From: an uncultured Alphaproteobacteria bacterium
GTDB taxonomy: Bacteria; Pseudomonadota; Alphaproteobacteria; Rhizobiales; Hyphomicrobiaceae
Direction of reading: 5' to 3'
Assembly: GCA_963753045.1 (NCBI GenBank)
Contig: CAVWAT010000011.1
Span: 21,306-85,305 of the forward strand
DNA length: 64,000 nucleotides
Part shown: in pieces, positions 13 to 9,407 of the stretch
How the letters are laid out: each line of letters begins with the position of its first letter
Numbering within the stretch: position 1 is the stretch's first letter
Made by a program: the position numbers and the translations under genes
The notes under the pieces: model-generated
The model's database searches: none
What the model was told of the DNA's origin: nothing
The model's input: the letters and a program-made list of their open reading frames with translations, nothing else

Positions 13-1332
13 GTGATTGATGAGATCCTGGCGGCTGACAAAGATCGTCCCAAGAAGCAGCGGCACACGTCCAAGCGGATCTTCGAGCGGCTGCGCGACG
101 AGCACGGTTTTACCGGCGGCATCACGATCGTGAAGGACTACGTCGCGGGCTGGCGCCAGCGGAGCCAGGAGATGTTCGTGCCGCTCGCGCATCCGCCGGG
201 GCATGCGCAGGCCGACTTTGGCGAAGCGCTGGCCATCATCGGCGGGGTCGAGCGCAAGATCCACTTCCTGGCGATCGATCTGCCGCACTCCGATGCGATC
301 TTTGTCGTGGCCTATCCGGCGGAGACGACGGAGGCGTTCTGTGACGGCCACGTCAGGGCGTTCGAGTTCTTCGGCGGCGTGCCGCAATCGATCCTCTACG
401 ACAACACCAAGATCGCCGTTGCCCGCATTCTCGGCGATGGCCGCCGCCAGCGCACGCGCGTGTTCAGCGAACTGCAATCGCATTACCTGTTTACGGATCG
501 GTTCGGCCGTCCCGGCAAGGGTAACGACAAGGGCAAGGTCGAGGGGCTTGTCGGCTACGCGCGGCGCAACTTCCTGGTGCCGATCCCGGTGTTCGACAGT
601 TTCGATGCGTTGAACGCGCATCTTGCTGGAGCGCTGCCGGAAGCGGCAGGGCGACCGGCTGCGCGGTCATGACGGGACGATCGGCGAGCGGCTGGAGCAT
701 GACCTCGCCGTCTTCCAGAAGCCGCTGCCAGCGCCTTACGACGCCTGCGACAAGCGCCCGGGTCGCGTCAACTCGCTGTCGCTCGTGCGCTACCGCAACA
801 ACGATTACTCAGTGCCGACAGCCTACGGACACCAAGAGGTTCTGATCCGTGGCTACGTCCATGAGGTCGTGATCTCGTGCGGCGCGCGAGATCATCGCGC
901 GGCATCCGCGCTCCTATGAGCGCGAGGACTTTGTGTTCGATCCGCTGCACTACCTGGCGTTGCTCGAACAGAAGACCAACGCGCTGGATCAGGCCGCACC
1001 GCTCAGCGACTGGGTGTTGCCGGAGGCGTTCGCAACGCTGCGCCGACTGCTCGAAGCGCGCATGGGCAAAAAGGGCAAGCGGGAGTTCGTCCAGGTGCTG
1101 CGCCTGATGGAGACGTTCACGCTGGATGATGTCGCGGCCGCCGTGCGACGACGCCATTGAGCGCGGCGCGGTTGGCTTTGATGCCGTCAAGCATCTGGTC
1201 CTGTGCCGGATCGAGCGGCGGCCGCCGCGGCTGGACATGACGATCTATCCGTATCTGCCCAAGGCCGTCGTCGCGACGACATCGGCGCGGTCGTACATGG
1301 ATCTGCTGCTGGCACAGGAGGTGGCAGCATGA
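13..1332 (+). pseudogene. istA: IS21 transposase IstA, split over several frames
   Basis: AQADFGE, SILYDN, GNDKGKVEGLVGY motifs; the frame continues through ORFs 623-919, 933-1160 and 1126-1332. Confidence 0.9.
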
Positions 1333-2175
1333 CCGACACGCCGCAGATCCTGCTGGCGCATCACCTCAAGGCGCTGAAGCTGCCGACGTTCCTGCGCGAG
1401 TACGACAAGGTCGCCCAACTGTGTGCGGCCGAAGGCGTCGATCATCCCCGCTACCTGATGCGGCTGGCCGAACTGGAGATGATCGATCGTGAGCGGCGCA
1501 TGGTCGAACGCCGGATCAAGGCGGCCAAGTTCCCGACCGTCAAAAGCCTCGACAGCTTCGACTTCTCGGCGTTGCCATCGCTCAACAAGATGGCGGTGCT
1601 GGAGCTGGCGCGCTGCGATTACATTGAGCGGCGCGAGAACATCATTGCCGTCGGCAACTCCGGCACCGGCAAGAGCCACATCGCCCTCGGGCTTGGTCTG
1701 GCAGCCTGCCAGAAGGGCTGTCGGTCGGCTTCATCACCGCTGCTGCCCTGGTGCACGAGACTGCATCGAAGCCCGCGACGAGAAGCGCCTGCTGCGCCTG
1801 CAGCGTCAACTGGCCGGCTACAAGCTGCTGATCATTGATGAACTGGGATACGTGCCGCTGTCGCCAACCGGCGCCGAACTGCTGTTCGAGGTGTTCTCGC
1901 AGCGATACGAGCGCGGCTCGACGATGGTCACCAGCAATCTGCCGTTCGACGAGTGGACATCCGTGTTCGGCTCGGAGCGCCTGACCGGCGCCTTGCTCGA
2001 CCGCCTCACCCACCACGTCCACATCCTGGAGATGAACGGCGACAGCTACCGCCTCGCCGAAAGCAAACGCCGCTCACGCAAAGCCAAGCCGCCACCGGCA
2101 GCAACCCACCAAGAAATAAGACGAACAAGCAAGAAGGCCCCCGATATCGGGGGCCTTCTTGCTTGCCGTCAGTGA
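1329..2175 (+). pseudogene. istB: IS21 AAA+ helper ATPase IstB, frameshifted near 1720-1760
   Basis: Walker A GNSGTGKS, Walker B LLIIDE, TSNLPF, ALLDRL; ATG overlaps the istA stop. Confidence 0.9.
2126..2165. terminator. 40-bp perfect palindrome near the istB 3' end (possible bidirectional terminator)
   Basis: caagcaagaaggcccccgat|atcgggggccttcttgcttg. Confidence 0.6.
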
Positions 2176-2223
2176 TGTACTTTTGCTCCGGCCAACTGAT
2201 GCAAAATTACTCCGGCGTTGACA

Positions 2224-2998
2224 TCTCAATTTCCTCGCGCTTGAACATCGCGCCCTGAACATCATCGAGAATCTCAGCGTGCATCTCCTGGAGTGCGATT
2301 CGTGTGCCGCCGAATTCGGCCTCCATTGCCTCGATGTAACCGGGCGGAAGCGCGATGTTGTCCGTTGTCTTACCCTTGATAAGCCGCACACCCTCACCGT
2401 CGCGCTTCACCATCTCCCTCAGCCACTCAACGGGCTTCGGCGTGGTGAAAATCAGGATGCGCGGGCTTGCGCTTTTGCGTAGGCAGAGGTTGGTGTTGCT
2501 CCACAGCTCAGCCCAGTTTTTAGGGGTGATGTTGCACGCCTCGTCTATCAGGGCGCAGTCGATCTCAGGACCACGAAGACGACCCGGCTTTTCAGCGCTG
2601 AAACCTCGGATTTGAGAGCCGTTAGCAAAGTCAATTGTCAGCTTACTCTTGTTGTAAGCGGTCTCCAACGACCCGCCAGCGAGCAGCCATTCAGGGCATA
2701 TTGTGGCAATGCCGGACACTCCTTCAAAGTTGGTCATCTGAAGGTCGTTTATCGTTGGCGCTATGAAGGCAAGGCGCTGTTTGGCCCGTCTGGCGGCACG
2801 CCATATTGCCTCATTAGACGATGCGAAGGTCTTTCCCCATGCGCGCCCCGCGAGTGCGATTGTTGTGCGTTCCCCCTGGTCAAGAATGATCTGCTCGGGT
2901 CTGAGCATGTCCAAGACCTTTAGCCGCCATTGGATCAACCGTTGCACTTCGGGTGGTAGGTCTGGAAGCACCTCCAGAAGTTGTGATTCCGGAGTCAT
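2224..2998 (-). pseudogene. Phage terminase large subunit, ATPase half only, interrupted by IS21
   Basis: Walker A AGRAWGKT, FSAEKPGRLRGP, Walker B ALIDE, TTP coupling motif; the frame runs into the IS21 end at 2223 and the nuclease domain is absent from the window. Confidence 0.88.
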
Positions 2999-3540
2999 GT
3001 CGTCGCTTTTTTCGTGGCCACGGCATCGAGCAAATCAGCGATGCTGCCCAACTCAATTTTCGGAGACGCTAACTCGTTGTCTTTATCGAACAGGTTCACA
3101 TGGCGTGCTAGGGCGTCGAGAGCTTTCATGCGGTCCGCGAGTCTAACTTCAATCGTCTGGTCTTTGCCCCGCTTCTGCTGCACGTGGCTGATTGCCAACA
3201 GCTGGTCCTCAGTCATCTCGTCACTGCTTTTGAGGGTGACTTTTCCGTTATCCCAGCGGTAGTAATCCTTGGGGTTGGCGTTGGCGATCGCGATGTATCT
3301 GCGCAAAACCCAAGCGGCGTCGACGGCAAATTGCTCTTCACTTTGTTTCTTAACTTGATTGGATAACTCTCTAATCCTTATGGCAACCTTATCGTTCGTC
3401 GCCAGCTGGCTTGCTGCCACATGGATTGATTCCGGCTTCATGCGAGAGGTGCTGTAAACCGCCTTGTAGGCCTCTGTCGCAGACCCATGCAAAGCCACAT
3501 GCTGAGCGAAGGCTGCCTGCTTCTTGGTTAGCTGTTTCAT
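2995..3540 (-). CDS. Phage terminase small subunit
   Basis: LTKKQAAFAQHV..SATEAYKAVY N-terminal HTH pattern, DRMKALDALARH; overlaps the terL start. Confidence 0.85.
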   Translation of the reverse strand: MKQLTKKQAAFAQHVALHGSATEAYKAVYSTSRMKPESIHVAASQLATNDKVAIRIRELSNQVKKQSEEQFAVDAAWVLRRYIAIANANPKDYYRWDNGKVTLKSSDEMTEDQLLAISHVQQKRGKDQTIEVRLADRMKALDALARHVNLFDKDNELASPKIELGSIADLLDAVATKKATT

Positions 3541-3791
3541 TCGTCGTCACCTTGCAGTGCGGTCCTGATGTGACGGGCCAGTTTGCGACCCAAGCTGAAA
3601 GCGGCGCAGCCTTTACTGTTGCGTGCTGCGATGTCGGCTGCCTTCACGATTTCATGATCGACCGGATGGCCTCCCGGTATTTTGGCGAGGGCATCGATCA
3701 GCGTTAAATCGCCGATCACGAATGCAGCGTCGCGCCATAGCGTTAGCGTCCGGCGGGGAATTTCCAGCTCGTGCGTCATGATGGTTTCCAT
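3537..3791 (-). CDS. Hypothetical phage protein (84 aa)
   Basis: ORF overlapping the terS start, in the same co-oriented run. Confidence 0.6.
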   Translation of the reverse strand: METIMTHELEIPRRTLTLWRDAAFVIGDLTLIDALAKIPGGHPVDHEIVKAADIAARNSKGCAAFSLGRKLARHIRTALQGDDE

Positions 3792-3908
3792 TGCAGTAGT
3801 TGGGGGAGAAGAGCCTCATTATTCCCCCCGGAGAGGCTCCTCTCGACCCCGGCGTTGGACAGCGAGGATACAGCGCCAACTTTACGATGTGCGGGTGTGT
3901 GTTTCCGA

Positions 3909-4181
3909 TTACTGCTTGGCGCTTCGGCGCTTCTGGTCTTCGTCGTATTCCAGCTGTAGGGCGATCCAGCGGGATGCTGGCCACTCGTCGATCGCACCCA
4001 GCTTGTCGGCGAGGTAGTGCGATGCTGGAATTTGGCCCTTCATGAACCATTCCAGCTGCCATAGTGGAATGCCAAGCGATTTAGCTATCAGGACTGGTGA
4101 TTCGTTGCTCTGCTCGACTATTGCGTACTGGAACACCGCGCCCGGATCGGGGACTGTTCTGAAGATTGCTAGGCGATCCAT
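3909..4181 (-). CDS. XRE/HigA-like helix-turn-helix protein
   Basis: IAKSLGIPLWQLEWFMKGQIPAS..LADKLG..WIALQLEYD resembles the HigA fold pattern. Confidence 0.6.
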   Translation of the reverse strand: MDRLAIFRTVPDPGAVFQYAIVEQSNESPVLIAKSLGIPLWQLEWFMKGQIPASHYLADKLGAIDEWPASRWIALQLEYDEDQKRRSAKQ

Positions 4182-4183
4182 GC

Positions 4184-4579
4184 TCAGTGCCTCGTTGTGG
4201 CTTGCTCGGGATCGCAGGCGGTTTTGACCAGCTCCACCGTGATGTGCTCAGTGACGCTCTGCGCGATCCTGGAGCGCTCTTGGGCATCTGTACCGGCCAC
4301 GGTCAGGATCATGTGAACTATGGCTTCAGTAGCGCCTTTCAGCAGCGTGGGATCGCCTTGGACGGCAGCGTCGCGATCGTCGGGCTCGATAGGTAGCGCC
4401 CAGTGGGTTGGCTGTGGGTCCATAGGCGGAGCGCTTTGCGTGCCCCTGTTCGTCCATAGGCCGTCAGCGGTGCGTGACGCGATGTGAATGCGTTCCTGAC
4501 CGGCGATGCCGACCAATACCATTTGCGGATGATCTGGCGCCGTCTCTATGGGCTGCCAGTTGATTATGGGTTCAAGCAT
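4184..4579 (-). CDS. DUF551-like phage protein
   Basis: WQPIETAP N-terminus and PTHWALP motif. Confidence 0.7.
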   Translation of the reverse strand: MLEPIINWQPIETAPDHPQMVLVGIAGQERIHIASRTADGLWTNRGTQSAPPMDPQPTHWALPIEPDDRDAAVQGDPTLLKGATEAIVHMILTVAGTDAQERSRIAQSVTEHITVELVKTACDPEQATTRH

Positions 4580-4781
4580 ATTTGCCGATCCTCAGAGCTT
4601 TCTCGACATCAGAGCGCAGCAAGACCGGATGACCCATTGGCTTGCTGGTGTCGATCGCCGGTTTCGGCAACAAGCCGATCTTGACCAGCCGCATTACTGC
4701 ACAGCGCAGCACTCCGGCTAACTCCGCAACAGCGCGGCGGCCCAGGATGTGAGACTTCTCAGCGTCGTAGAGTGATATGTC
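4572..4781 (-). pseudogene. Second AlpA/excisionase-like HTH frame with no canonical start (missed by the ORF track)
   Basis: Hand translation gives ..HILGRRAVAELAGVLRCAVMRLVKIGLLPKPAIDTSKPMGHPVLLRSDVEKALRIGKYA*; the stop lies just inside the 5' end of the downstream gene. Confidence 0.55.
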
Positions 4782-4920
4782 TTATTGGCCCCTTATTGGC
4801 CGTTAATTAGCCCTTTAATAGCCGTTCTATTGGCGCCAAAGGTTAACGTGGCGAGAGAAGTGTAAGCGAATACAGCGGCTTGCGGCGCGTCGAATTGGCC
4901 CTTTTATTGGCCCCTTTTGG
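4781..4920. repeat. Cluster of degenerate 11-bp direct repeats (consensus ~cttattggccc)
   Basis: cttattggccc, cttattggccg, ttaattagccc, tttaatagccg, ttctattggcg, plus about 3 more copies at 4893-4920. Confidence 0.7.
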
Positions 4921-4927
4921 AACCCTG

Positions 4928-5263
4928 TTAGTTTCCCGACCCATTTGCAGCTGTCGCCCAATGCTTCGGCTTTTGACTGAAGGGCTGCCATTTCCTGATT
5001 TTGAGACACCTAGTGTCTTCCGTTGTCAGCCCAACGCCCTTAGCGATATCCATTCGGATTTGATGTTTGTCTTCTCCTGGAAAGTAGGTTTCAACCTTTC
5101 CAGTGATACCCTGCGCCGCCAATTCTCGGCAGGCAGTGAATTCGGGGTCTCTAGCGGCTTCAACGATGGTTTCTCCATTAAACGAGACATTGAACCGCTC
5201 GTGCTTACTGCCGTACCCAGACCGCCAAATCTCCGGACGATGGATCATGTAATTAGCCCCCAA
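4928..5263 (-). CDS. Hypothetical phage protein (111 aa)
   Basis: Co-oriented ORF with protein-like composition. Confidence 0.6.
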   Translation of the reverse strand: MGANYMIHRPEIWRSGYGSKHERFNVSFNGETIVEAARDPEFTACRELAAQGITGKVETYFPGEDKHQIRMDIAKGVGLTTEDTRCLKIRKWQPFSQKPKHWATAANGSGN

Positions 5264-5267
5264 ATAG

Positions 5268-5312
5268 AAAAACCGCCCTAGAACGCCAGTAGAGGGGTGC
5301 TAGAGCGGCTTT
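5268..5312 (-). terminator. Intrinsic terminator
   Basis: Minus strand GCCGCTCTAG..CTAGGGCGGT plus T5; the G-U pairs fit the minus strand. Confidence 0.55.
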
Positions 5313-5378
5313 GTTGTTTCCCGGTGGCGCAACCCCTGGAGCGGTCCTGAAAACCGCTGTGGGGTCGCCCCGTACACG

Positions 5379-5642
5379 CTAGCGTGCGTTTTCTTCGGGC
5401 ATATCGCACTGAAGGTAAGTTGCTGGGTCGTCAGTTGGCATGAAAGCCACGACATTGGCGTATGGGCCATCAGGATCGCCGTAGGTGACGATCGCGTATT
5501 GGTCCCTGGGTCCGTAAACCCCGTACGACTGACAACATTGGCGGCGGATTTTGTAATAGGCGCCGGACCACCGTCCTGGACCGGGCGGTGGCTTGGGGAT
5601 GTTCTTTTCCCACCTTTTGCGCTGTGCCTGACTGAATATCAC
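5379..5642 (-). CDS. Hypothetical phage protein (87 aa)
   Basis: ORF 9 bp downstream of rep, same strand. Confidence 0.6.
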   Translation of the reverse strand: MIFSQAQRKRWEKNIPKPPPGPGRWSGAYYKIRRQCCQSYGVYGPRDQYAIVTYGDPDGPYANVVAFMPTDDPATYLQCDMPEENAR

Positions 5643-5651
5643 CCCTCCTGC

Positions 5652-7172
5652 CTATGCTGCCATCTTCTGTTTGGTAAGCATTTTATCTACCTCAGACCAT
5701 CCGTTGATTAGGGAGTAATTCTCTCTGTGCTCCTCATAGTGCCGACCACGCCGAATCATCTCCTCGGCATACTCAAGCGTCTCTTGGTATCCGTGCCGAC
5801 CAACCACAATCTCGGCATTGTCATAGTCGCTTGCCATGTCGTCGGTGAATACGAAGCCGCAACCGCCCATTTCGTTGAAGCGAACCATGAACTGGTTGAT
5901 ATTAGTGATGCTGTCGGGCGGTGCCTTGTGCAGAGTGTTGGCGAGTTTGCAGGTGACCAACTTTAGCGAATTCATCCAAGCTTTGCGCTCAGCGCCGAAC
6001 TGCCTCTCGATTTCATCGTAGACGGTTTGCAGGGCGCGCCTTGGAGGCATATGGGGCTGGAGGGTCATGACACCAGCTGCAATGCGCACGATGGCTGCTG
6101 CCCCTGCTGGTGACGCGACCTGAAAGTGTACTCGGTTTTCAGTGTGGGTTTTCAGAAGGGCAATATGCTCGTCGACGCTGTAGACTGCTGCGACAGCTTC
6201 AAGGTCTTCCTGGTTCGCATCCTCGCCGCCTTCGACTTCATCAATCATGCCGAATGGTTTCAGTTGTTCGATCTGCCAGCGGTTCTTGTAGTCAGATTGA
6301 TCGATGCTGTTCATCCAGCCCAGGAGACGATCGATTTCAAACACTTCCTGAAAACAAAAATCATGTGGGTGCGTGTCGTTCGCTTGCGACGACACGTAGT
6401 CACCGTTAGGTGACCTGCGTGAACAGTTCTTAGTGCGTGGAGAGTTCTTCCTAAGTGTGTCTGCCCTCTTTGGGCATGCCCTCTTTGGGTATACCTTCTC
6501 TGGGTATGTGGCTTCCTCGATGTCCATTTGGGCGTCGGACGCAGATTTACGGTGCTCTTGAGCGTCCTCAGCTTGGGCATATGGCGCCTTGCTCTTGCAC
6601 AGGTAAACCCGGTTTCCAAGGCGGCCAGTTTCAGGGTTACGAGGCCTATATGACGTGATGTACTTAGATAGCTCCCTAAGGACCTTCTGCGCGACACGGA
6701 TCGAGAAACCGAATCGCTTTGCAATCTTGTTTGCGTATGTCTGGAGGTTTGCGCGAATGAACAACAGGACCGCAACCTGTCGGCTTGTCAGACTTCCATC
6801 AAACAGGTCTTCATAAGCCCTCTGATAGCCGCCTCGATTGCTCGGCATCTTCAGTTGCTCTTGGGCGTACTGCTTGACGTGGCGCCCTCTTTTTGGCTGC
6901 GAGCGCTCAAGGAACCCAAGCTCCTGAGCTTCCCTCTGTGCCTTGTAGTACCTATTCCGACAGAACCGGATACCACGTTGGCCGCTTGGCAGCGTAATAC
7001 CGAGACGAATATCATGCTCGTTGAATGCGTATCGATCACCAACAAACAATCCACGCATGGCCAGCATAACCAAGGTGTCCTCTGACACAGCTGGATTGAG
7101 CGTTAATTTGTGTGGCACCTCAGAAAACCGAACTTTCTGATGTTTCGTCTTTTGACTTTCAAAGTTAGTCAT
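5652..7172 (-). CDS. Putative replication initiator with tandem winged-helix regions (506 aa)
   Basis: Basic N-terminal HTH-like segments, internal iteron-like repeats, and position directly downstream of alpA. Confidence 0.6.
   Translation of the reverse strand: MTNFESQKTKHQKVRFSEVPHKLTLNPAVSEDTLVMLAMRGLFVGDRYAFNEHDIRLGITLPSGQRGIRFCRNRYYKAQREAQELGFLERSQPKRGRHVKQYAQEQLKMPSNRGGYQRAYEDLFDGSLTSRQVAVLLFIRANLQTYANKIAKRFGFSIRVAQKVLRELSKYITSYRPRNPETGRLGNRVYLCKSKAPYAQAEDAQEHRKSASDAQMDIEEATYPEKVYPKRACPKRADTLRKNSPRTKNCSRRSPNGDYVSSQANDTHPHDFCFQEVFEIDRLLGWMNSIDQSDYKNRWQIEQLKPFGMIDEVEGGEDANQEDLEAVAAVYSVDEHIALLKTHTENRVHFQVASPAGAAAIVRIAAGVMTLQPHMPPRRALQTVYDEIERQFGAERKAWMNSLKLVTCKLANTLHKAPPDSITNINQFMVRFNEMGGCGFVFTDDMASDYDNAEIVVGRHGYQETLEYAEEMIRRGRHYEEHRENYSLINGWSEVDKMLTKQKMAA
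6462..6506. repeat. Three 15-bp iteron-like repeats inside rep (putative origin)
   Basis: tgccctctttgggca, tgccctctttgggta, taccttctctgggta; unit is dyad-like (TGCCC-N5-GGGCA). Confidence 0.6.
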
Positions 7173-7180
7173 GTTAACTT
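7152..7180 (+). promoter_or_regulatory. Sigma70-type promoter antisense to rep, straddling its start codon
   Basis: TTGACT (7152-7157), 17-bp spacer, TAACTT (7175-7180). Confidence 0.6.
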
Positions 7181-7185
7181 AGTTC

Positions 7186-7246
7186 CATATTGTAGATAAA
7201 AATTAAGCCGCCCAGACCCGGCAAGGTCATTTGGGTGGCTTTTTTT
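7186..7246 (+). ncRNA. Putative ~60-nt countertranscript (antisense) RNA
   Basis: The promoter above, plus terminator stem agccgccca-gacc/ggtc-tgggtggct (G-U pair valid only on +) and T7 at 7240-7246. Confidence 0.55.
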
Positions 7247-7282
7247 GTGGCCTATGGGTTGGCGCGAATTGTGCCGGTTAGG

Positions 7283-7531
7283 TTACTTGATCTCGTTGAT
7301 ACGCAACGCTTCCTCAATCTCAGCACGCAGCCAGATTTTTTTGCTGCTCTTACCACCGCAACCAATCTTTCTCGGCGGCGGAATAATCTTTGCTGCGACC
7401 AGAGATTCCGCATTGCGACGGGTGATGCCGTAGCAGCTGAGGTCCTTGATGCCGACGATAGGCTTCTTGGTCGTCATATCCATTCCCATTCTCTCGCCGT
7501 GTGTGTGGTTTCCAAACAAAAAACACCGCAC
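7283..7531 (-). CDS. AlpA/excisionase-like HTH regulator
   Basis: Short basic protein ending PPPRKIG..IWLRAEIEEAL. Confidence 0.7.
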   Translation of the reverse strand: MRCFLFGNHTHGERMGMDMTTKKPIVGIKDLSCYGITRRNAESLVAAKIIPPPRKIGCGGKSSKKIWLRAEIEEALRINEIK

Positions 7532-8598
7532 AAGCGGATTGCCATGCGGTGTTCATCTGAGCATACGTGCGCTCAATTCTATTTGCATAATACACGGTAT
7601 AAGCTTCTATGGCAACCCATATTTAGTCATTTTATACTTTCTCGGCAGCAAACTGAGCCACCATCCGCCAATAGCCCCCAATTCATAGGCGTTAGCGCCG
7701 GGAACTTTTTTTCAATTATCTTGCATTCGGTCTGCAATTCGCTATGTTTCCGGTTCGGAATAGCCATCCGAGACGTCCATAGGCCACAAATACGGGACTA
7801 ATCACCAGCTCTGCCAAGGCTGTTGATTCGCACGAATTGAGGGGGCGGGAATCGATTGGCAGCGGTTCCCGCCTTTATTGCATCTTCTATTCCCGAGTCA
7901 TTTCCGATCGTTTTCGTTCCAGTTTTGTAAATAAGCTGGGAACTTGATTGTTCGCCCCCTCAAGAGCGCCGAGCTGCCTGGCACCGACGCTATCGCCCTT
8001 TCGCCTAGGTGGGCGACGGGCTTGCATCTCGCAACGAAACTTATTTGGGGCTCTCATCTAAGCAAAAACGTAGCGTTGAGGCTTGTAATCTGGTTCTGGC
8101 GCTCTGTTTCATTATTTGTTTCGGTCACCCAATGTTGAAGTTGTATGTCGGTCGCATGGCTCACGAGGTTGCTGCGTGAGAGCCGTTCTGCTTTGAAGGC
8201 TCAATATCCCGACACGTGATTAAATCCCTCTCAGCGGTCAACTGCGTGTCCCTTCCCAGGAAAGCCTCCAGACCTCCGGGAAGAATTGTTCAGGTCTAAC
8301 CCCTGCTTTCCGCCGCAAGGCATCCGCAATCCGCGCACTTTAAAAAGTCGGCGAGAATGAAAGAGGTTTGCAAAGGGTCGCCAAGCTGCATATACCGCCA
8401 CCCGTTTGAAAACAAAGAGTATAAATCGAGGCCCGGCGATCGATCCTTGAAGTTTCGACATGCCCTGGGTTGCATCGAAGGTAACGAAAGGTTTCCCCGA
8501 CATTGCCAGCGACGCGGTCGAAGACAAGCAGACATCACGTGACCAAGACTTCGGCCTGGTCCTTTCAGCTGCACTCAGAAGTTGTGAGGCTTGCCCAT

Positions 8599-8640
8599 AA
8601 AAGAAGCCCGACGCAGGGGTGTCCGAGAACCTGCGCCGGG
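8599..8640 (-). terminator. Intrinsic terminator-like hairpin
   Basis: Minus strand cccggcgcagg..cctgcgtcggg followed by cttctttt. Confidence 0.5.
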
Positions 8641-8787
8641 CCGGTGAACGGGTAGACCTGGAGGACGAATGCAAGCAGTGCTCACGCCCGGACGCCGTTC
8701 GCACTCCAGTAATATTCTGCGCCGCCTACGATGAACATCGGAACTTGAGAACCGCGCGATCGGATTTGTCGATCGCTGATCCGAAAA

Positions 8788-8825
8788 GGCCCGGCATTGG
8801 GGCTCGATCAACCCAATGCCGGGCC
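8788..8825 (-). terminator. 14-bp perfect inverted repeat, terminator-like
   Basis: ggcccggcattggg-N10-cccaatgccgggcc, with a T4 tail on the minus strand. Confidence 0.5.
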
Positions 8826-9407
8826 AAAATTTCAGGGAGCGCGAGGTGGTTGCGGCTTCAAAAGCGCTCGACCCGAATGGAACGCGATCGAGCATTGGTG
8901 CAATGACCGAACTGTGGCTCTCCGCGCCCCACGTTATATCGATTTGTTGATAAGCAGCGCTCGGTGCGCGCCGAACGAGTGCGGGGCCCACGTTTCACAT
9001 GGACCGTTCTGACGATGAGTTGGAAAGGCCGCCAGCTCAATCATCGACGGGGGGAGCGCGTCGATCTGCCAGAGAAACGTGTCATATTGGGAACTAGTTC
9101 TCGGCGTGTCGGACTTCCCCACAGAAGAGCGTCGCCGTGTGGAAAAAAGCCCCTGCAACCAGGGCATTTGGGCGACGCAAAACTGAAAGACTTTTTCTCG
9201 ATCAACCGGACTTGAGTTGCATTGTGAAGTGGTTCGTCGCCGCCACTGCCGTTGCTCAGCGGCTCACTGCCTTGGTATTCGCGCGGGTCGACATTTCAAC
9301 GCCGATTTGCGTTGCACAAAATAGAAACACTAAGTGATGGCAATCAGCCTATTCGAACAGCACAAGTGAGTGTAGCGGTTGAGGTGCAAGGGGGACTTGC
9401 AGAGGGA

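What the first reader, a model, noticed from the sequence alone, without database searches (positions are those of the whole stretch)
7152..7246. Plasmid-style countertranscript RNA over the start of a phage-like replication gene
Seen: a near-consensus promoter TTGACT-N17-TAACTT on the + strand straddles the rep ATG (7170-7172). It is followed 60 nt later by a GC stem with T7 whose G-U pair only works on +. All surrounding genes are on the - strand, so the terminator has no other transcript to serve. Established: repABC plasmids use a ~55-60 nt ctRNA in the same geometry just upstream of repC. Inference: this satellite/prophage-like element controls replication with a ctRNA, a combination I do not recall being described.
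Basis: partly seen in the sequence, partly recalled or inferred. Interest (0 to 1): 0.7.

Follow-up and report, generated by a model that had tools for sequence, protein, structure and literature searches.

The report
Predicted antisense RNA guarding an initiator-like gene
A strong promoter and a strong terminator on the "wrong" strand outline a likely ~60-base antisense RNA gene just upstream of a putative replication-initiator gene in a decayed integrative phage-like element; the design is already known from plasmids and phage lambda, and here it is predicted from sequence only.

Summary
TTGACT(7152-7157)-N17-TAACTT(7175-7180) straddles the ORF506 start codon on the + strand. It is followed by a 14-bp GC hairpin and T7 (7205-7246) with a G·U pair that exists only on +. 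"Near-consensus" is overstated (8/12). However, the matches sit at the most informative positions and a TGn extension is present. A weighted score ranks the site 2nd in the window, equal to lambda pO.

Only two promoter+terminator units 35-160 nt long exist in the 64 kb (0.065 expected). Both flank the small alpA-like gene.

A distant relative (L010; 30% and 39% protein identity) repeats the whole layout, including an antisense promoter whose -10 contains the homologue's start codon. Most other homologous loci lack it.

No RNA data exist and no Rfam family matches. The "rep" and "alpA" labels rest on fold, synteny and nearby iteron-like repeats, not on any family model. The element is a remnant cut by insertion sequences.

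Best reading (0.55): a cis-antisense RNA of about 60 nt that represses ORF506. It resembles pMV158 CopG/RNAII/RepB and lambda pO/oop more than repABC. It is a new member of a known kind.

The parts
7152..7157 (+). -35 hexamer TTGACT of the antisense promoter. It lies in codons 6-7 of ORF506.
7172..7180 (+). Extended -10: TG (7172-7173), t, TAACTT (7175-7180). The complement of the ORF506 start codon (7170-7172) sits in the spacer just before it.
7187..7246 (+). Predicted ~60-nt antisense RNA, with the start site inferred at A7187, 7 nt after the -10. It has an AU-rich single-stranded 5' tail (7187-7204), a hairpin (7205-7241) and U7 (7240-7246).
   Evidence: the start site is inferred, not measured
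7205..7246 (+). Intrinsic terminator: 14 bp with a 3-nt bulge, a 6-nt loop, G7210·U7236, and T7. It is the third best terminator-like structure in the window and the best with a run of T7 or longer.
7195..7241 (-). The same hairpin read on the sense mRNA. It has one A·C mismatch (-19.1 against -21.6 kcal/mol) and the tail UUAAUUUUUAUC. It is a possible leaky attenuator and is the target of the antisense RNA.
7183..7186 (-). Shine-Dalgarno-like GGAA of ORF506, directly abutting the 5' end of the region complementary to the antisense RNA.
   Evidence: read directly
5652..7172 (-). ORF506: tandem winged-helix N-terminal half, a disordered linker and a helical C-terminal domain. It is a putative initiator or DNA-binding protein from an unannotated family.
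7283..7477 (-). 64-aa alpA/excisionase-like winged-helix gene. Alternative starts lie at 7483 and 7489.
7587..7615 (-). Sense promoter TTGCCA-17-TATTAT. It is the third best sigma-70-like site of the window and the only good promoter upstream of the alpA-like gene and ORF506.
7514..7554 (-). Promoter-proximal sense terminator (13-bp stem plus UUUUUUGUUU). It begins about 26 nt after the inferred start site and lies ahead of the alpA-like gene.
6986..7015 (+). Second antisense promoter-like site, TTGGCA-18-TATCAT (10/12, 4th best in the window). It would give an antisense RNA of about 225 nt ending at the same terminator.
4782..4913 (.). Six same-orientation copies of TTATTGGCCC-like 10-mers, partly at 11-bp spacing, in a non-coding gap downstream of ORF506. 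This is a candidate iteron-type origin or operator array.

Best explanation
Positions 7152-7246 (+) are a small cis-antisense RNA gene.

Proposed sequence of events:
1. RNA polymerase starts at a sigma-70-type promoter that overlaps the first codons and the start codon of ORF506.
2. It makes an RNA of about 60 nt: an 18-nt AU-rich single-stranded 5' tail, then a GC hairpin, then U7.
3. It stops 36 nt short of the stop codon of the alpA-like gene.

Target:
- ORF506 has no good promoter of its own. It is read from the promoter at 7615 through the alpA-like gene and the spacer.
- The antisense RNA is fully complementary to that spacer, from -74 to -15 relative to the ATG. The duplex would end exactly at the GGAA Shine-Dalgarno-like element.

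Most likely action:
- Pairing occludes or restructures the ribosome landing zone, or makes the duplex a target for a double-strand RNase. Either keeps synthesis of ORF506, the putative initiator, low.
- Polymerase sitting at or firing from the antisense promoter probably also hinders incoming sense transcription.
- The same hairpin on the sense strand, weakened by an A·C mismatch and a broken U tract, may add a leaky stop.

Shown: the sequence anatomy, its statistical rarity, and repetition of the layout in one distant relative.
Inferred: the transcript itself, its start site, its effect on ORF506, and that ORF506 is a replication initiator.
For: 1. Promoter quality. TTGAC at -35, a 17-nt spacer, TGn, and T-12/A-11/T-7 at -10. 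Weighted score 15.4 bits, rank 2 of about 68,000 scored sites in the window, above lambda pO at 15.1.

2. Terminator quality. -21.8 kcal/mol with T7, third best of 21 terminator-like structures in the window. RNA fold z = -3.87.

3. Joint rarity. 0.003-0.012 such promoters are expected in the 80-nt zone. Only two promoter+terminator units exist in 64 kb against 0.065 expected.

4. Strand asymmetry. The hairpin is more stable on the antisense strand in three lineages: window -21.6 vs -19.1, L010 -21.9 vs -16.7, L003 -26.3 vs -23.4 kcal/mol. In L010 and L003/L004 there is no sense-side T run.

5. L010 repeats the layout. Its 70-aa gene is 39% identical to the window's 64-aa gene, with a pairwise BLASTP E-value of 2e-11. 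Its ORF506 homologue is 30% identical. The locus reads: sense promoter, leader terminator about 67 nt on, alpA-like gene, antisense terminator ending 1 nt from the stop codon, and the best antisense promoter of the locus (TTGGCG-16-TATCAT), whose -10 holds the complement of the homologue's ATG.

6. Modest enrichment. Strong antisense terminators lie within -300..+80 in 2-3 of 12 independent homologue loci against 0.34 expected.

7. No promoter of 10 bits or more for ORF506 lies in the spacer, so the target region sits on the bicistronic mRNA.

8. The architecture equals pMV158 RNAII: a 17-nt AU-rich tail, a GC hairpin and a U tail, lying in the copG-repB spacer just upstream of the repB initiation signals (PMC4485353).
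Against: - There is no transcript evidence of any kind.
- By plain hexamer count the promoter is 8/12, which is chance level. The weighted score uses E. coli frequencies recalled from memory, and the host is unknown, probably an alphaproteobacterium.
- The 55 nt around the start codon are 26-30% GC, which favours promoter look-alikes.
- Nine of 12 homologous loci, including the closest relative L008 (33% identity), show no comparable unit.
- The spacers cannot be aligned, so there is no covariation test.
- The hairpin also looks like a sense-strand terminator (-20.1 kcal/mol with a T5 run).
- The element is a remnant flanked by insertion sequences, so the unit may be inactive now.
- ORF506 has no match to any known initiator family.
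Confidence: 0.55

Rival explanations
1. The hairpin serves the sense strand. It would be an internal intrinsic terminator or attenuator between the alpA-like gene and ORF506, one of three - strand terminators (7554-7514, 7241-7195, and a hairpin about 5310-5273 with a T run at 5272-5268) that punctuate an early operon read by leaky read-through or by antitermination. The + strand T7 would merely be the A-tract that often precedes strong terminators, and the + promoter would be a chance product of the AT-rich start region.
For: - The sense-strand version scores -20.1 kcal/mol with a T5 run. It is 5th of 21 in the window.
- Two further strong - strand terminators lie in the same 2.3 kb.
- A promoter-proximal terminator ahead of the alpA-like gene fits antitermination-type control. 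In Pseudomonas aeruginosa, AlpA target promoters carry a terminator beginning 26 bp after the start site (PMC7969949).
- L016 has sense terminators after its alpA-like gene.
Against: - On the sense strand the stem has an A·C mismatch and the U tract is interrupted right after the stem (UUAAUUUUU).
- This reading does not explain a top-2 promoter at the right distance on the other strand.
- In L010 and L003/L004 the corresponding hairpins have T runs only on the antisense side.
Confidence: 0.2
2. The promoter matters and the RNA does not. As proposed for lambda pO against pR, firing of the antisense promoter over the ORF506 start would throttle incoming sense transcription by polymerase collision or occlusion. 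The terminator would only keep that transcription out of the alpA-like gene, and the 60-nt product would be a by-product.
For: - The geometry matches lambda pO/oop, checked on the lambda sequence. The pO -10 CATAAT contains the complement of the O start codon, the -35 lies inside O, and the terminator follows about 77 nt on.
- For lambda, promoter interference rather than oop RNA was concluded to affect pR transcription and replication (PMC3985674).
- The convergent promoters at 7615 and 7152 are only about 430 bp apart.
Against: - The RNA has the tail, hairpin and U-tract design of effective antisense regulators. Its target also ends exactly at the ribosome-binding element (PMC4485353).
- In L010 the antisense RNA is about 185 nt and well structured, with z = -3.1.
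- Both mechanisms may act together.
Confidence: 0.12
3. It is a relic or a coincidence. The element is a decayed fragment, and the promoter-like and terminator-like sequences have no present function, or the RNA acts in trans on something else, such as a helper phage or a host transcript.
For: - The large terminase gene is cut by an IS21-type element near 2207.
- IS3 and IS110 copies begin near 9678, and no integrase remains.
- Near-identical copies occur only in a few low-depth metagenome runs, with no sequence variation to show selection.
Against: - ORF506 and the alpA-like ORF are intact.
- The same layout is kept in L010 despite more than 60% protein divergence.
- The joint rarity of promoter and terminator argues against coincidence.
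Confidence: 0.13

Closest known systems
pMV158 CopG / antisense RNAII / RepB copy-number control module (also R1 CopB/CopA/RepA)
   Same: - A small DNA-binding regulator gene is co-transcribed with a downstream initiator gene.
- A short countertranscript is encoded wholly in the spacer.
- The RNA consists of a 17-18-nt AU-rich single-stranded 5' tail, a GC hairpin with a bulge and a 6-nt loop, and a U tail.
- The target lies immediately upstream of the initiator's translation signals (PMC4485353, PMC5717011).
   Different: - The element here is an integrative phage- or satellite-like element, not a rolling-circle plasmid.
- The small protein is predicted to be a winged helix of excisionase type, not a ribbon-helix-helix.
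- ORF506 is unrelated to RepB.
- The RNA here is about 60 nt against 48 nt.
- Nothing has been shown experimentally.
Phage lambda pO promoter and oop RNA
   Same: - An antisense promoter lies over the start codon of the replication initiator gene, convergent with the early promoter.
- The RNA is short (77 nt in lambda, about 60 nt here).
- It ends at a GC hairpin plus T run next to the upstream small regulator gene (PMC3985674).
   Different: - oop overlaps the 3' end of cII and lowers cII expression through RNase III. Here the RNA stops 36 nt before the alpA-like stop codon and covers the leader of the downstream gene instead.
- There is no homology to cII or O.
repABC ctRNA (inc-alpha; Rfam ctRNA_p42d)
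   Same: - A short antisense RNA with its own promoter and terminator lies in the spacer just upstream of the initiator gene.
- The homologues of ORF506 that carry an organism name are all alphaproteobacterial, as are repABC replicons (PMC3155836).
   Different: - No Rfam match.
- There is no repA, repB or repC.
- The repABC mechanism forms a terminator in the repC leader after pairing. Here only 15 nt follow the target, so that mechanism does not fit.
AlpA or Q-type antitermination units (Pseudomonas aeruginosa AlpA; lambda PR'-tR')
   Same: A strong promoter is followed within about 26 nt by an intrinsic terminator next to an alpA-like gene. This is conserved in L010 (PMC7969949).
   Different: - That unit lies upstream of the alpA-like gene itself, outside the finding.
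- The small protein has no sequence match to AlpA or to Pfam AlpA/HTH_17 models.

Membership tests
repABC ctRNA (Rfam ctRNA_p42d and other ctRNA families) | Sequence and structure match to the curated covariance models | tested here: not met
   cmscan of 6900-7700 at E <= 10 lists no ctRNA family. The whole window at gathering thresholds yields only a tRNA.
repABC ctRNA (Rfam ctRNA_p42d and other ctRNA families) | Located between repB and repC of a repABC operon | tested here: not met
   The neighbours are a 64-aa winged-helix gene and ORF506. Neither matches ParA, ParB or RepC models, or any other model.
repABC ctRNA (Rfam ctRNA_p42d and other ctRNA families) | Pairing makes the initiator leader fold into an intrinsic terminator (PMC3155836) | tested here: not met
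   Only 15 nt lie between the end of the complementary region (7187) and the ATG (7172). No downstream terminator can form there.
pMV158-type Cop protein + antisense RNA + Rep module | The antisense RNA lies entirely in the spacer of a bicistronic regulator-initiator mRNA, immediately upstream of the initiator's translation signals | tested here: met
   The predicted RNA spans 7187-7246, the spacer spans 7173-7282 and GGAA lies at 7186-7183. No promoter of 10 bits or more lies in the spacer. This is prediction only.
pMV158-type Cop protein + antisense RNA + Rep module | RNA made of an AU-rich single-stranded 5' tail, a GC hairpin and a 3' U tract | tested here: met
   Minimum-free-energy and centroid folds of 7187-7246, compared with PMC4485353.
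pMV158-type Cop protein + antisense RNA + Rep module | Initiator of the rolling-circle RepB family and a ribbon-helix-helix CopG | tested here: not met
   No Pfam match. ORF506 is a tandem winged-helix protein. The small protein is predicted to have an excisionase-like fold.
pMV158-type Cop protein + antisense RNA + Rep module | The RNA is made, turns over fast and inhibits initiator translation | not testable with these tools
   No RNA runs hold the sequence.
Lambda pO/oop | Antisense promoter overlapping the start of the initiator gene, with a short terminated RNA | tested here: met
   Window. Lambda checked on NC_001416.
Lambda pO/oop | The RNA overlaps the 3' end of the upstream regulator gene (cII) | tested here: not met
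   The T run ends at 7246 and the alpA-like stop codon lies at 7283-7285. In L010 the RNA ends 1 nt from the stop codon.
AlpA / HTH_17 excisionase-like proteins (the small upstream gene) | Match to Pfam Phage_AlpA or HTH_17, or to a solved AlpA | tested here: not met
   No Pfam family at E <= 1. No PDB sequence match to AlpA.
AlpA / HTH_17 excisionase-like proteins (the small upstream gene) | Excisionase-type winged-helix fold, positioned beside an integrase in related elements | tested here: inconclusive
   The single-sequence model has pLDDT 75. Its best hit is the GIsul2 excisionase 8c3t (TM 0.63-0.69, E 0.06). Related loci carry HTH_17 genes and P4-type integrases.
Replication initiator (the 'rep' label for ORF506) | Homology to a known initiator family (Rep_3/RepA, RepC, lambda O, DnaD-like) | tested here: not met
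   No Pfam, PHROG or NCBIfam match. No tblastn hit in 72,556 plasmids or 50,697 phages, even with a homologue as query. Foldseek finds only generic winged-helix regulators.
Replication initiator (the 'rep' label for ORF506) | Tandem winged-helix DNA-binding domains, iterons nearby, and the replication slot of an integrative element | tested here: inconclusive
   Two winged-helix units within residues 15-200. Six phased TTATTGGCCC-like repeats at 4782-4913. Synteny of integrase, small HTH gene and ORF506 homologue in L003, L008 and L011/12.

The most novel reading that the evidence does not exclude
The window and L010 may share a so far undescribed two-switch control cassette of a family of small integrative, satellite-like elements, probably alphaproteobacterial.

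- Switch 1: a strong promoter is closed after about 65 nt by a promoter-proximal terminator ahead of an alpA-like gene. This would be opened by antitermination or read-through, possibly by the AlpA-like protein itself.
- Switch 2: an antisense RNA, fired from a promoter over the start codon, holds down a new, unannotated family of tandem winged-helix initiator proteins.

Together these would give plasmid-style copy-number or induction control in an integrated element.
Probability: 0.3. Interest if true: 0.6.

Novelty: new member of a known kind. Interest (0 to 1): 0.45.

Why it matters
If the RNA is real, antisense control of an initiator gene would extend beyond its classic settings in plasmids and lambda. 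It would reach a family of small integrative phage-like elements whose central gene, the ORF506 family, has no annotation at all. About 90 distant relatives exist, and they sit beside integrases.

It would also give a handle on how such elements keep replication silent while integrated. The conserved paired layout (leader terminator before the alpA-like gene, antisense RNA before ORF506) offers two simple, testable switches.

If the RNA is not real, the case is a caution. An AT-rich gene start next to a bidirectional-looking terminator can mimic a small RNA gene.

Tried and rejected
RNA family searches:
- Rfam found only a tRNA at gathering thresholds, and only noise at E <= 10 around the site.

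Searches for close relatives, all empty:
- E. coli genomes.
- Phage and plasmid collections, with ORF506 and with homologue P0010.
- Species-representative genomes, viral contigs and JGI metagenomes, with ORF506, P0003, P0004 and the alpA-like protein.
- The word-indexed protein search returned only near-identical fragments. I also spent one search on a profile that added nothing.
- Alignments A1 and A5 were too diverse for locus searches.

Sequencing runs:
- Seven runs hold the sequence, but only as low-depth contigs identical to the window. There was no RNA and no variation.
- No RNA run exists for the Hyphomicrobium locus.

Other leads:
- A degenerate pattern for the hairpin found two unrelated generic terminators in viral contigs.
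- Structure search of ORF506 gave only generic winged-helix hits.
- DNA alignment of the spacers of the window, L010 and L008 is not meaningful (51% column identity). A shared GCAAGGTC word is within chance, so I could build no covariance model.

Change of view:
- I first dismissed the promoter as chance on the plain 8/12 count. I reversed that after position-weighted scoring and the comparison with lambda pO.

Rejected interpretations:
- A real + strand protein gene ending at the terminator. The + ORFs there lie antisense inside a supported coding region.
- A repeated REP-like element. The hairpin is unique in the window.
Full report
**What is there**

On the + strand, TTGACT (7152-7157), a 17-nt spacer and TAACTT (7175-7180) straddle the complement of the start codon (7170-7172) of a 506-codon - strand ORF (5652-7172). 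T7172-G7173 adds a TGn extended -10. Seven nucleotides after the -10 lies A7187.

From there the sequence reads as follows:
- an 18-nt AU-rich stretch;
- a hairpin (7205-7241) of 14 bp with a 3-nt bulge and a 6-nt loop;
- a run of seven T (7240-7246).

The 60-nt RNA folds at -22.9 kcal/mol (z = -3.87). G7210·U7236 is a pair only on the + strand. On the - strand it becomes an A·C mismatch, and the trailing tract is UUAAUUUUUAUC. All credible genes from 2207 to 7480 are on the - strand.

**Is it more than chance?**

By plain hexamer count the promoter is 8/12. That makes 'near-consensus' an overstatement. There are 119 sites at least as good in the window, and the built-in scan did not list it.

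The matches, however, are the informative ones: TTGAC, T-12, A-11 and T-7, with optimal spacing and TGn. I scored all sites with a position-weighted scheme built from sigma-70 frequencies recalled from memory, so the scheme is approximate.
- The site scores 15.4 bits and ranks 2nd of all sites on both strands. It ranks 4th without the TG term.
- Ranks 3 and 4 are the - strand promoter at 7615-7587 and a + strand site at 6986-7015.
- The known lambda pO promoter scores 15.1 in the same scheme.

Under Markov nulls of local composition, a site this good in the 80 nt before the terminator is expected 0.003 times (49% GC) or 0.012 times (30% GC). The terminator is the third best of 21 terminator-like structures in the window.

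Only two pairs of strong promoter and strong terminator 35-160 nt apart exist in the whole window, against 0.065 expected. One is this unit. The other is a - strand unit (promoter at 7615, terminator ending near 7518, about 63 nt). The two face each other across the small gene at 7477-7283.

**The neighbours**

The labels 'rep' and 'alpA' are not supported by any family model. Neither protein matches Pfam, PHROGs, NCBIfam or PDB sequences.

ORF506:
- It has about 90 distant relatives (25-35% identity) in an exhaustive search.
- Many relatives carry MarR_2- or HTH_36-type winged-helix hits in the N-terminal half.
- An AlphaFold model (pLDDT 82) shows two winged-helix units, a disordered linker and a helical C-terminal domain.
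- Foldseek finds only generic winged-helix regulators.
- No member is found in 72,556 plasmids or 50,697 phage genomes.

The 64-aa protein, modelled from a single sequence (pLDDT 75), best matches a transposon excisionase (8c3t, TM 0.63-0.69, E 0.06).

Synteny helps. Homologues lie beside P4-type integrases or a resolvase, with small HTH_17/AlpA-like genes, in Hyphomicrobium and several metagenome contigs. Six phased TTATTGGCCC-like repeats at 4782-4913 could be iterons. 'Putative initiator of an integrative, satellite-like element' is thus a reasonable but unproven reading.

The element in the window is a remnant. The large terminase gene is cut by an IS21-type element near 2207, and IS3 and IS110 copies start near 9678.

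**Related loci**

No close relatives exist in the collections I could search. The runs that hold the sequence carry identical, low-depth contigs. There is therefore no alignable variation and no covariation test.

I compared architecture across 12 independent homologous loci.

L010 repeats the whole design:
- Its ORF506 homologue is 30% identical. Its upstream 70-aa gene is 39% identical to the window's (pairwise BLASTP E-value 2e-11).
- The best sense promoter of the locus is followed about 67 nt later by a terminator, then the alpA-like gene.
- An antisense-only terminator follows (-21.9 kcal/mol antisense against -16.7 sense, with no sense T run). Its T run ends 1 nt from the stop codon.
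- The best antisense promoter of the locus, TTGGCG-16-TATCAT, has a -10 that contains the complement of the homologue's ATG.
- This predicts a structured antisense RNA of about 185 nt.

Other loci:
- The two Hyphomicrobium loci L003 and L004 (91% identical to each other) have an antisense-only terminator 180 nt upstream but no clear promoter.
- Strong antisense terminators occur in 2-3 of 12 loci against 0.34 expected.
- Nine loci, including the closest relative L008, show nothing comparable.
- L016 has sense terminators instead.

The trait is therefore patchy, but it recurs in a way that a sense-strand attenuator would not explain.

**Mechanism**

ORF506 has no promoter of 10 bits or more in the spacer. 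It must be read from the promoter at 7615 through the alpA-like gene and the hairpin.

The predicted RNA is complementary to positions -74 to -15 of that mRNA and stops exactly at the GGAA ribosome-binding element (7186-7183). The most likely action is inhibition of ORF506 translation, or cleavage of the duplex. Interference between the convergent promoters is a probable second layer, and the weakened sense-strand hairpin may act as a leaky stop.

The attenuation mechanism of repABC plasmids forms a terminator in the leader after pairing (PMC3155836). It does not fit here, because only 15 nt remain before the ATG.

**Comparison with what is known**

- *pMV158 CopG/RNAII/RepB.* This is the closest match in design. 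A small regulator gene is co-transcribed with the initiator gene. The 48-nt countertranscript has a 17-nt AU tail, a GC hairpin and a U tail. It lies in the spacer just upstream of the initiator's translation signals (PMC4485353; also R1, PMC5717011).
- *Lambda pO/oop.* This is the closest match in a phage. On the lambda sequence, the pO -10 CATAAT contains the complement of the O start codon, the -35 lies inside O, and a hairpin plus T run follows about 77 nt on. pO activity influences replication (PMC3985674).
- *Known ctRNA families.* Membership fails, because no Rfam match was found.

The repABC analogy is the weakest of the three. The claim that such a combination is undescribed in phage-like elements overlooks lambda.

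**Verdict**

The sequence observation is confirmed and is beyond chance. The best explanation is a cis-antisense RNA gene repressing ORF506 (confidence 0.55).

The rivals are:
- a sense-strand attenuator with a chance promoter (0.2);
- promoter interference without a role for the RNA (0.12);
- a relic, a coincidence or a trans-acting RNA (0.13).

It is a new member of a known kind, of moderate interest. The main added value is the conserved paired layout shared with L010 and the unannotated ORF506 family.

Noticed in passing
window 7514-7615 (-); L010 1582-1685 (+): The third best sigma-70-like promoter of the window (TTGCCA-17-TATTAT) is followed about 26 nt after its inferred start site by a 13-bp terminator, just ahead of the alpA-like gene. 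This makes a leader of about 63 nt. L010 has the same arrangement (TTGACA-19-TAAATT, about 67 nt, T6). It resembles promoter-proximal terminators of Q- or AlpA-type antitermination units (PMC7969949).
   Followed up: partly
window 7244-7257 and 7777-7790: A perfect 14-bp inverted repeat (TTTGTGGCCTATGG / CCATAGGCCACAAA) brackets the alpA-like gene together with its promoter and leader. The left arm overlaps the last three T of the T7 run. My rough estimate is about 0.02 expected for the 7.4-kb region searched. There are no further good copies in the window, and the similarity does not extend beyond 14 bp. It could be a pair of operators or a recombination site.
   Followed up: partly
window 4782-4913 and 5250-5259: Six same-orientation TTATTGGCCC-like 10-mers, partly spaced 11 bp apart, lie in a non-coding gap downstream of ORF506. 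A seventh lies at 5250. This is a candidate iteron array or origin.
   Followed up: partly
window 6986-7015 (+): TTGGCA-18-TATCAT (10/12, 4th best site in the window) lies inside ORF506 on the antisense strand. It would give an antisense RNA of about 225 nt covering the first 150 nt of ORF506 and ending at the same terminator.
   Followed up: partly
window 7160-7176 and 7618-7634: A 17-nt direct repeat (82% identity) around TTAGTCAT. The sequence at the ORF506 start (TAACATGACTAAC on the - strand) recurs immediately upstream of the -35 of the 7615 promoter. It is possibly a shared operator.
   Followed up: no
window 6462-6508: A 15-bp tandem repeat of 3.1 copies lies inside ORF506. It encodes part of the low-confidence linker (residues 207-267).
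   Followed up: no
window 13-2207 and 9678-16500: The phage-like segment is a remnant. The large terminase gene (N-terminal domain only, 2207-2998) is cut by an IS21-type element whose istB is itself frameshifted. IS3- and IS110-family copies fill 9678-16500. No integrase is left.
   Followed up: partly
window 5268-5310 (-): Another strong - strand terminator (-21.6 kcal/mol, T5) follows the 87-codon ORF (5379-5642) that sits just downstream of ORF506.
   Followed up: no
window 8631-9045 and 9390: One metagenome contig skips 413 nt (8631 to 9045). Several contigs have loose ends at 9045 and 9390. This points to a repeat boundary or structural variant just beyond the element.
   Followed up: no
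L003 2757-2800 and L004 2650-2690: The Hyphomicrobium homologues carry an antisense-only terminator (-26 to -29 kcal/mol, T5) 180 nt upstream of the gene. It lies between a 199-codon ORF and the homologue, inside an element with a P4-type integrase, an HTH_17 gene and a GTA-gp10-like gene.
   Followed up: partly
window 5652-7172 (-) and proteins P0003-P0090: ORF506 belongs to an unannotated protein family of about 90 representatives at 50% clustering. It has a conserved tandem winged-helix N-terminal half (motifs such as FGxLPN and RFGWSRPTA). No member occurs in the plasmid or phage collections.
   Followed up: partly
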